From the NCBI GenBank assembly GCA_012295275.1, contig CM022679.1, positions 15,128,001 to 15,192,000 on the forward strand: a DNA stretch of 64,000 nt, given 5' to 3'. Numbering within the stretch: position 1 is the first letter of the stretch; each line of letters starts with the position of its first letter. Positions 7,913 to 8,454 of the stretch are shown here, in pieces. The notes under the pieces are model-generated. The model was not told the origin of the DNA and made no database searches. It saw only the letters and a program-made list of their open reading frames with translations. Made by a program: the position numbers and the translations under genes. The stretch comes from Chrysomallon squamiferum. Its lineage: Eukaryota; Animalia; Mollusca.

Positions 7913-8454
7913 TCACCAGATTTATTAACATCCTGTTCACCGGCCGATATTTACATTAATATACATCAGTAACATCACCAGGTAACTTAGATTTGTTAAT
8001 CACCGGTGGATATAAACATTAAAAATATATATATATATATATATGTATGTATACAGATTATATAAGAGATATAAACCACATAAGCAGACATACTGAATGT
8101 CAGGAGACTTTGGAGTCTCGATTATTCAATCACTGGTGAATATAGGCATTTACATGCATGACACTGAAGCAGACATTCTTGATGATTGAGACTAGCTAAG
8201 GTCTCCATTTTAGCCAGATGAAACAGACATAATGAACACAAAAATATCAAAAGCCAAATAATGATTACTATTACAATATTATTATTTTTTTAAAAAGAAG
8301 AAAAAAAAAAAAATTAAAAGTACTATATGAAGAAACATCAGCTTAGAGCCCGATATAAATAACATTTTTCAAAAATAGCAAAAGGCTTTTTTTTTCTTTT
8401 TCTTCTTTTTTTTTGTTGTTTTTGGGGAGTTTTTTTTAGTTTGTTTTCACCGGG
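7913..8454 (-). promoter_or_regulatory. Cluster of candidate miR-36/miR-35-family target sites in proximal 3'UTR
   Basis: Plus strand reads TCACCGGG 8447-8454, TCACCGG 8000-8006 and 7937-7943, TCACCAGGTA 7975-7984, TCACTGG 8130-8136 and TCACCAG 7913-7919. On the mRNA these are CCCGGUGA-type sites. Confidence 0.5.

What the first reader, a model, noticed from the sequence alone, without database searches (positions are those of the whole stretch)
7913..8454. Dense cluster of miR-36/miR-35-family seed sites in the receptor 3'UTR, with apparent 3'-supplementary pairing
Seen: in CpG-poor DNA, TCACCGG occurs four times downstream of the stop (8447, 8000, 7937, 2222), all in the orientation that gives CCGGUGA on the mRNA. 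By eye I found none in the introns; one more lies in coding sequence at 55083. The 8447 site is a full 8mer (CCCGGUGA) 58 nt after the stop. TCACCAGGTA at 7975 would be a single G:U wobble site, and offset matches ACCGGG lie at 2659 and 32. Two sites are followed by ACATT (7953, 8016). Known: the protostome miR-36 / nematode miR-35-42 family begins UCACCGGG; from memory, lophotrochozoan members continue UAGACAUU. Inference: this receptor may be a strong cooperative target of a germline/embryonic miRNA family. I am not aware that this link has been described.
Basis: partly seen in the sequence, partly recalled or inferred. Interest (0 to 1): 0.8.

Follow-up and report, generated by a model that had tools for sequence, protein, structure and literature searches.

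The report
miR-36 sites in snail receptor mRNA
The long tail behind a snail's orphan nuclear-receptor gene (NR1CDEF-beta) holds four exact seed matches to the microRNA miR-36, far more than chance gives, so miR-36 likely dampens this receptor, which by oyster data would happen in eggs, early embryos and late larvae: an ordinary kind of control on an apparently undescribed target.

Summary
Observation confirmed. TCACCGG lies at 2222, 7937, 8000 and 8447 behind the stop of a minus-strand nuclear receptor, always in target orientation, never in 42.7 kb of introns. It ranks first of 16,384 7-mers there (4 seen, 0.07 expected). The gene is the orthologue of oyster NR1CDEF-beta; its closest named relative is from Gigantopelta aegis. 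RNA contigs carry the 8447 and 2222 sites and place the cluster inside the transcribed span. Added here: a 12-nt miR-36 match at 32-43, four seed matches to miR-279 (miR-36's cluster neighbour in oyster), and one miR-36 site behind a bivalve-like orthologue (1 of 3 relatives). Weak points: the ACATT '3' pairing' is 5-6 bp at a +5 offset and may be duplication or a Pumilio element; the clustered sites are predicted to fold up; this species' miR-36 was not seen; no repression test. Oyster miR-36 is high in eggs and blastulae, highest in late larvae, nearly absent in adults and female gonad, so 'germline' is too narrow. Verdict: likely real multi-site target (0.72), new member of a known kind. 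Scan look-ups showed similar arrays for other miRNAs, none for this one.

The parts
8513..8754 (-). Coding part of the last exon of the NR1CDEF-beta nuclear receptor (end of ligand-binding domain; stop TAG at 8515-8513)
   Evidence: Pfam Hormone_recep weak hit; 96% identical to Gigantopelta aegis LOC121378724; spliced RNA contigs continue into the exon ending at 9666; splice sites read
9666..55846 (-). Upstream coding exons: 9885-9666, 10602-10450, 13969-12558, about 16112-15947 and 27386-27285 (zinc fingers), about 54001-53864, 55224-54691, 55846-55457
   Evidence: tblastn of P0043 on the window; splice signals; outer three exons approximate
1925..8512 (-). Inferred long 3' UTR, at least 6.5 kb; true end not mapped
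   Evidence: RNA contigs cover about 8024-8757 and 1925-2999; 0.81-0.89 of words of 7425-8770 are in four RNA runs versus at most 0.55 if the RNA ended at 8007; unstranded, not bridged by one contig
8447..8454 (-). miR-36 8mer site (CCCGGUGA), 58 nt after the stop
   Evidence: inside spliced RNA contigs of X1 and X2
8000..8006 (-). miR-36 7mer-A1 site; ACATT at 8016-8020 could pair with nt 12-16 at +5 offset
   Evidence: predicted unpaired probability 0.02
7937..7943 (-). miR-36 7mer-A1 site; TACATT at 7952-7957 could pair with nt 11-16 at +5 offset
   Evidence: predicted unpaired probability 0.16
7975..7984 (-). miR-36 site with one G:U wobble at seed position 6, pairing nt 2-10
7913..7919 (-). 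Second wobble or CpG-decayed seed copy (TCACCAG on +)
8130..8150 (-). CpG-decayed copy (TCACTGG, seed mismatch) related to the 8000 module
   Evidence: repeat family D1, 77% over 31 nt; flank similarity P 0.003 and 0.046
2222..2228 (-). Distal miR-36 7mer-A1 site
   Evidence: covered without change by RNA contigs in 3 of 4 runs
2659..2664 (-). miR-36 offset 6mer (nt 3-8), 41 nt from a miR-279 seed match
   Evidence: covered by RNA contigs in 3 of 4 runs
32..43 (-). Extended miR-36 match, nt 3-14 with one G:U; the longest match in the regions scanned on either strand; membership in the UTR not shown
69..75 (-). miR-279 7mer-A1 match
   Evidence: seed
2618..2625 (-). miR-279 7mer-m8 match (nt 2-9)
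   Evidence: covered by RNA contigs in 3 of 4 runs
3237..3243 (-). miR-279 7mer-m8 match
   Evidence: no RNA contig laid here
8190..8195 (-). miR-279 6mer match
   Evidence: inside the spliced X1 contig
7948..7955 (-). Perfect Pumilio-type element UGUAAAUA (motif recalled) overlapping the ACATT of the 7937 site
   Evidence: motif not enriched in the region (4 sense, 7 antisense)

Best explanation
The tail of this NR1CDEF-beta receptor gene carries four exact miR-36 seed matches plus imperfect copies, which are likely real binding sites through which miR-36 would lower the receptor's mRNA and protein. Argonaute loaded with miR-36 would pair through its seed with the 8mer near the stop and with the packed group at 7913-8006 (starts 24, 38 and 25 nt apart). 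Neighbouring complexes would help each other recruit CCR4-NOT and deadenylate the mRNA, as shown for miR-35-family sites in C. elegans. miR-279, encoded next to miR-36 in oyster, likely adds repression through four further seed matches. By the oyster time course, repression would act in eggs and blastulae and again in late larvae, and would lift after metamorphosis when miR-36 disappears. The group likely arose by old short duplications after which the seed words were kept and the spacers drifted. Shown: the sites, their excess, the gene, RNA cover. Inferred: strand and continuity of the UTR, presence and timing of miR-36 in this species, binding, cooperativity, repression.
For: Top 7-mer of 16,384 is exactly a 7mer-A1 site of a known family, in one orientation only, absent from introns. 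All 4 seed hexamers in target orientation carry the A opposite nt 1. The sites keep a CpG where downstream CpG o/e is 0.21. Offset 6mers are also in excess (3 vs 0.05-0.25) and a 12-nt match lies at 32-43, longer than any other in the 61.5 kb scanned on both strands. Spacers between the 7937 and 8000 modules are no more alike than shuffles (P 0.73-0.81, 9-nt loop 0.06) while the seeds are identical. RNA evidence. Mollusc miR-36 with this seed: Biomphalaria, oyster, 3 rows of PMC11067994 under another name. Bivalve-like orthologue L001 has CCGGTGA 496 nt after its stop, about 0.005 expected in the first 600 nt and 0.05-0.07 in 6.9 kb. miR-279 seed 4 vs 0.33-0.48 expected, 0 on the other strand; 8 of 3,000 shuffles reached 4.
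Against: Only 1 of 3 related loci has a 7mer site; L002 (1,231 nt held) has none and L003 only a 6mer in GC-rich DNA. No close gastropod UTR could be fetched. The 7937, 7975 and 8000 sites are predicted to be base-paired (unpaired 0.16, 0.18, 0.02; hairpin z -2.5, 4 of 200 shuffles as stable). Three of the six proximal copies carry the change CpG decay would give, so selection is not absolute. No RNA contig laid across 7913-8020 itself, and contigs are unstranded. This species' miR-36 gene was not seen; Rfam finds nothing in the window. The miR-279 excess was noticed after the fact (rank 17 of 4,096 hexamers). In C. elegans, loss of some predicted miR-35 sites (sup-26, nhl-2) has no phenotype (PMC7462058).
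Confidence: 0.72

Rival explanations
1. Neutral leftovers: one chance CCGG-containing word was copied by short local duplications and is decaying by CpG mutation; no microRNA acts here.
For: 7937, 8000 and 8130 fall in one 31-nt repeat family; 8000 and 8130 flanks are related; 7913, 7975 and 8130 differ from the seed by CpG transitions.
Against: The 8447 and 2222 sites share no flank with the group (P 0.18-0.97); the spacers of 7937 and 8000 have diverged to background while the most mutable word is intact; three independent events still give P 6e-5; the word recurs behind L001.
Confidence: 0.12
2. The words are kept for RNA structure or for an RNA-binding protein: self-complementary CACCGGUG and CCGG stretches close a hairpin over 7900-8030, and the ACATT at 7953 belongs to a Pumilio element, not to microRNA 3' pairing. 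This can be true for the ACATT part even if the seeds are real.
For: Hairpin of -29.2 kcal/mol, z -2.5, pairing the 8000 copy with the 7913 copy; UGUAAAUA at 7948-7955.
Against: It does not explain the isolated sites at 8447, 2222, 2659 and 32, which are more open (0.54-0.87 unpaired), nor the fixed A opposite nt 1; Pumilio elements are not enriched here.
Confidence: 0.07
3. The words are a DNA element, such as a transcription-factor site in a downstream enhancer (ACCGGT-type motifs, recalled for Grainyhead-like factors).
For: Two copies are palindromic CACCGGTG (2223, 8001); CpG retention also fits an unmethylated DNA element.
Against: TCACCG occurs 7 times on one strand and 0 on the other; copies are confined to transcribed tail and coding exons and absent from introns; CpG is not raised generally in the region.
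Confidence: 0.04
4. The direction of control is reversed or two-way: the receptor mRNA acts as a trigger that destroys miR-36 (target-directed microRNA degradation), as the tts-2 RNA does for miR-35-42 in C. elegans.
For: Seed pairing alone is enough for decay of this family (bioRxiv 10.1101/2025.07.30.667716, abstract); oyster miR-36-3p falls from 1,263 RPM in pediveligers to 1 RPM in juveniles; an unusually long match lies at 32-43.
Against: No site has the long 3'-end pairing of classical triggers; many plain seed sites fit ordinary repression better; transcriptional shut-off explains the fall equally well.
Confidence: 0.05

Closest known systems
C. elegans miR-35-42 targets with cooperating sites: toh-1 (PMC5499589, passages), egl-1, sup-26, nhl-2 (PMC7462058, passages)
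   Same: Same seed family (CACCGGG); canonical and non-canonical sites close together; several sites are needed to recruit CCR4-NOT in embryo extract.
   Different: Here the host is a gastropod, the target is a nuclear receptor, there are four canonical sites over 6 kb, the likely partner is miR-279 and not bantam, and nothing has been assayed.
Oyster cgi-miR-36 / cgi-miR-279 cluster 11 (PMC4138081, supplement rows)
   Same: Supplies the seeds matched here; the two hairpins lie 4 kb apart on one strand.
   Different: No target is named in the passages and rows seen; miR-279 stays high in adults whereas miR-36 is stage-limited; the cluster was not seen in this species.
Oyster CgNR1CDEF-beta / mussel MgNR1DEF (PMC4070562, passages and supplement rows; PMC5041327, passages and Results)
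   Same: Orthologue: both published primers for CgNR1CDEFb encode peptides found at the expected distance in the oyster protein that matches this gene; those for CgNR1CDEFa do not.
   Different: Those papers do not mention microRNAs; function and ligand are unknown; the oyster gene is reported to differ between adult sexes.
tts-2 decay trigger for miR-35-42 (bioRxiv 10.1101/2025.07.30.667716, abstract and outline)
   Same: Same seed family; seed pairing alone drives a developmental event.
   Different: tts-2 is a non-coding RNA with one main site that destroys the microRNA; here a coding mRNA with many sites is more likely the one repressed.

Membership tests
Canonical multi-site miRNA target (miR-36/miR-35 family) | Perfect seed matches of 7mer-A1, 7mer-m8 or 8mer type in the sense of the mRNA | tested here: met
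   One 8mer and three 7mer-A1
Canonical multi-site miRNA target (miR-36/miR-35 family) | Excess over composition-matched background | tested here: met
Canonical multi-site miRNA target (miR-36/miR-35 family) | Sites lie in the 3' UTR of the mature mRNA | tested here: met
   8447 direct, on a spliced contig; 2222 on unstranded RNA contigs; 7937 and 8000 by inference from word shares
Canonical multi-site miRNA target (miR-36/miR-35 family) | The species encodes and expresses miR-36 together with the target | not testable with these tools
   No genome held; present in other gastropods and oyster
Canonical multi-site miRNA target (miR-36/miR-35 family) | Sites conserved in orthologous UTRs | tested here: inconclusive
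   1 of 3 distant relatives has a 7mer-A1 site; no close gastropod locus found
Canonical multi-site miRNA target (miR-36/miR-35 family) | Accessible, AU-rich context | tested here: inconclusive
   Flanks 62-80% AU; unpaired 0.54-0.87 for isolated sites but 0.02-0.18 for three clustered ones
Canonical multi-site miRNA target (miR-36/miR-35 family) | Seed-dependent repression or Argonaute binding | not testable with these tools
   Needs reporter or CLIP
3'-supplementary miRNA site | At least 4 contiguous pairs covering nt 13-16 at a small offset | tested here: inconclusive
   5-6 pairs but at +5 offset; PMC8940178 passages: for let-7a, sites starting at nt 12 are best at 0 to +1, affinity falls beyond +4, and nt 13-16 alone gives about 1.5-fold
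Target-directed miRNA degradation trigger | Seed plus long 3'-end pairing, or shown ZSWIM8-dependent decay | tested here: not met
   No long 3' pairing at any canonical site; the seed-only route of tts-2 cannot be tested here
miR-36 genes on the + strand | Precursor hairpin with the seed at the start of the 3p arm | tested here: not met
   0 of 7 candidates fold as a precursor; no Rfam hit
NR1CDEF-beta / NR1DEF nuclear receptor | C4 zinc-finger domain and ligand-binding domain orthologous to CgNR1CDEFb | tested here: met
   by best match and primer peptides, no tree built

The most novel reading that the evidence does not exclude
The miR-36/miR-279 cluster is a mollusc-wide developmental timer that holds the orphan receptor NR1CDEF-beta off in eggs, early embryos and swimming larvae and releases it at metamorphosis, giving the protostome miR-36 family a conserved, stage-switching target outside nematodes; the receptor mRNA may in turn help clear miR-36.
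Probability: 0.2. Interest if true: 0.7.

Novelty: new member of a known kind. Interest (0 to 1): 0.42.

Why it matters
miR-35-42 is essential for nematode embryos, but my ten searches turned up no described miR-36 target in a mollusc, and NR1CDEF-beta has no known function in the two papers that name it. A CpG-containing seed in CpG-poor DNA gives an unusually clean signal, so this UTR is a good first reporter for miR-36 in molluscs. If the link is conserved it ties a stage-limited microRNA to a lophotrochozoan receptor at the larva-to-adult switch. The mechanism itself is ordinary.

Tried and rejected
No whole genome is held, so no genome-wide UTR background and no search for the Mir-36 gene. 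Orthologue scans: metagenomes gave 3 loci of 180 candidates; genome contigs gave 1 of 121, a 22-residue match in a bacterial bin that I did not use; viral contigs 0 of 124. miR-36 hairpins on the + strand: rejected. Octopus conserved-site list (PMC9699675 data S3): the archive is not held, and the other supplements have no Mir-36 or orthologue id; it may bear on conservation. An apparent fit between the trochophore trough of miR-36 and the mid-development peak of CgNR1CDEFa was dropped because the gene is the beta orthologue; the beta profile is only in a figure that is not held. An earlier count said 'not germline/maternal' from the 5p arm alone; the 3p row corrects it. No RNA contigs of X1-X3 laid on 7425-8009 and none of X1-X4 on most of 3000-3480; the tool says such holes prove nothing. 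Pumilio, ARE, Brd-, K- and GY-box motifs (recalled) are not clearly enriched. miR-279 sites in relatives: 1 hexamer in L001, none in L002 or L003. Scan look-ups by place and by protein gave nothing.

Full report
The gene. The window holds one long minus-strand gene. Its last exon ends in TAG at 8515-8513 and has a weak Pfam ligand-binding-domain hit; zinc-finger exons lie near 27,300 and 16,000. The closest named protein is Gigantopelta aegis LOC121378724, 96% identical over the last exon and 72% over the long hinge exon, so the animal is likely a related gastropod. The oyster orthologue (P0062 cluster, Magallana gigas LOC105341096) contains the peptides encoded by both published primers for CgNR1CDEFb, 220 residues apart for a 680-bp product, and none of those for CgNR1CDEFa. 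The gene is therefore NR1CDEF-beta (MgNR1DEF), an unassigned NR1 receptor (PMC4070562, passages). No tree was built.

The observation. Every coordinate given is right. In 1-8512 TCACCGG is the most over-represented of all 16,384 7-mers (4 vs 0.072; 4 vs 0.01 with an intron-trained order-3 model). None of 3,000 dinucleotide shuffles reached 2 copies. It is absent from 42.7 kb of introns on both strands. Four of 29 downstream CpGs are in this word against 0 of 213 intronic ones. A self-trained order-3 model gives weaker values (3e-4 for 1-8512, 1.5e-2 for 7425-8512). On the mRNA the word reads CCGGUGA, the 7mer-A1 site for a microRNA starting UCACCGG.

Is it in the mRNA? Four RNA runs of one study hold 0.81-0.89 of the sampled words of 7425-8770. 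If the RNA stopped at 8007 the share could not exceed 0.55. One X1 contig is spliced to the exon ending at 9666 and runs through the 8447 site to about 8024, where a TA repeat begins; X2 also covers 8447. No RNA contig of the 3 runs laid crossed 7913-8020, and the share could reach 0.885 without that block, so its inclusion is inferred from RNA on both sides. RNA contigs of 3 of 4 runs cover the 2222 and 2659 sites, in X1 at depth 50 against 66 at the last exon, with no variant in the sites. Contigs are unstranded and none bridges the whole tail; no silent control stretch was laid.

Does the microRNA exist? Biomphalaria miR-36a-3p (PMC7328434 Table II; 2 and 5 reads in the two snail libraries) and oyster miR-36-3p (PMC4138081 supplement rows) begin UCACCGGG and have ACAUU at nt 12-16. 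Three rows in the PMC11067994 supplement carry the same sequence under another name. Oyster miR-36-3p in RPM: egg 535 (38 reads), blastula 456, trochophores 61 and 12, D larva 73, umbo 300, pediveligers 1,263 and 374, spat 183, juvenile 1, adult organs 0-13, female gonad 11. So the family is maternal or early and late-larval, and off in adults. It is abundant in Schistosoma eggs (PMC3653858, passages) and is grouped with nematode miR-35-42 and insect miR-3/309 (PMC4238352, passage). This species' own miR-36 was not seen, as no genome is held.

Duplication. 7937, 8000 and 8130 form a 31-nt repeat family, and TCACCAG precedes both 7937 and 8000, giving a period of about 62 nt. The spacers of these two units are no more alike than shuffles (P 0.73-0.81; 9-nt loop 0.06), whereas 8000 and 8130 share flanks (P 0.003 and 0.046); 8447 and 2222 are unrelated to the group. 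The copies at 7913, 7975 and 8130 differ from the seed by the transitions that CpG decay gives. My reading (inference): old duplications made the group, and selection kept some seeds. Treating 7937 and 8000 as one event leaves P 6e-5.

3' pairing. The two ACATT would pair with nt 11-16 or 12-16 at a +5 offset. Two of four by chance has P 0.003-0.01, but 0.07-0.12 if the two are duplicates. PMC8940178 (passages) finds for let-7a that sites starting at nt 12 are best at 0 to +1, that affinity falls beyond +4, and that nt 13-16 alone gives about 1.5-fold. The 7953 copy also overlaps a perfect Pumilio-type element (motif recalled, not enriched). I do not count 3' pairing as shown.

Additional support found here. 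At 32-43 the sequence matches miR-36 nt 3-14 with one G:U, the longest such match in the regions scanned on either strand (next best 10); whether it lies in the UTR is unknown. The 7975 site pairs nt 2-10 with one wobble. The miR-279 seed hexamer occurs 4 times in target orientation and 0 times in the other (0.33-0.48 expected; 8 of 3,000 shuffles reached 4); two copies lie about 40 nt from miR-36 offset matches. miR-279 is the cluster neighbour of miR-36 in oyster. I noticed this after the fact, and it ranks 17 of 4,096 hexamers, so it is suggestive only.

Conservation. The metagenome scan gave three relatives. L001, 95% like a venerid clam orthologue, has CCGGTGA 496 nt after its stop, the only copy in 6,881 nt; about 0.005 is expected in the first 600 nt and 0.05-0.07 overall. 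L002 (bivalve-like, 1,231 nt held) has none, and L003 (66%, GC-rich) has a 6mer only. That is 1 of 3, encouraging but thin.

Against. The clustered sites are predicted to pair with each other (unpaired 0.02-0.18; hairpin z -2.5). In C. elegans some predicted miR-35 sites can be removed without effect (PMC7462058, passages). Nothing here measures binding or repression.

Mechanism and rivals. Most likely is seed-based repression by miR-36, helped by close spacing, as for cooperating miR-35 sites that recruit CCR4-NOT (PMC5499589, passages): 0.72. Neutral duplication 0.12; RNA structure or protein binding 0.07; decay trigger for miR-36 as with tts-2 (abstract; family decay in bioRxiv 10.1101/2021.11.19.469346, passages) 0.05; DNA element 0.04. 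miR-36 genes on the + strand are rejected.

Novelty. Ten full-text searches (listings seen) showed no paper linking miR-36 to this receptor. Only two papers name NR1CDEF, and neither mentions microRNAs. The library lacks most subscription papers, and the octopus target list (PMC9699675 data S3; passages seen, archive not held) could not be read. PMC3840308 (passages) added nothing on targets. The mechanism is a known kind; the target is apparently new. Interest 0.42.

Noticed in passing
window 18-131: Short decayed tandem repeat (three related units); one unit carries the 12-nt miR-36 match, the next a miR-279 7mer-A1 match.
   Followed up: partly
window 8082-8236: Three copies of a 16-nt word containing CAGACAT (family D2), with another GCAGACA near 6745; no microRNA seed assigned.
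   Followed up: no
window 5895 and 8130: TCACTGGT matches the start of a doubtful small RNA listed from two loci in the PMC11067994 supplement and resembles the miR-3/309 seed (recalled); they could be sites for a seed variant and not only decayed copies.
   Followed up: partly
window 5360 and 7888: TCACAGCC twice, matching miR-2 nt 3-10 (a shifted register); TCACAGC also occurs 7 times in introns, so not clearly enriched.
   Followed up: partly
window 54691-55224: Coding exon with a tandem repeat of 12 residues (SSVQSPVYNK-type) giving CACCGG at 54832, 54904 and 54976 and the 8mer at 55083; the Gigantopelta protein has different repeat expansions in its N-terminal part.
   Followed up: no
window 7720: Run X5 has an 11-nt insertion here, and about 1% other differences, none in the seed sites.
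   Followed up: no
window 8800-9410 and 14850-15720: Intronic minisatellites that give long low-complexity open frames.
   Followed up: no
PMC11067994 supplement, rows 33, 548, 599: miR-36 is listed under the name miR-181d-3p, so name searches miss it.
   Followed up: yes
PMC4138081 supplement, row 79: The oyster miR-124 star strand contains UCACCGGGUA internally, but not at its seed and at under 3 RPM, so it does not explain the sites.
   Followed up: yes
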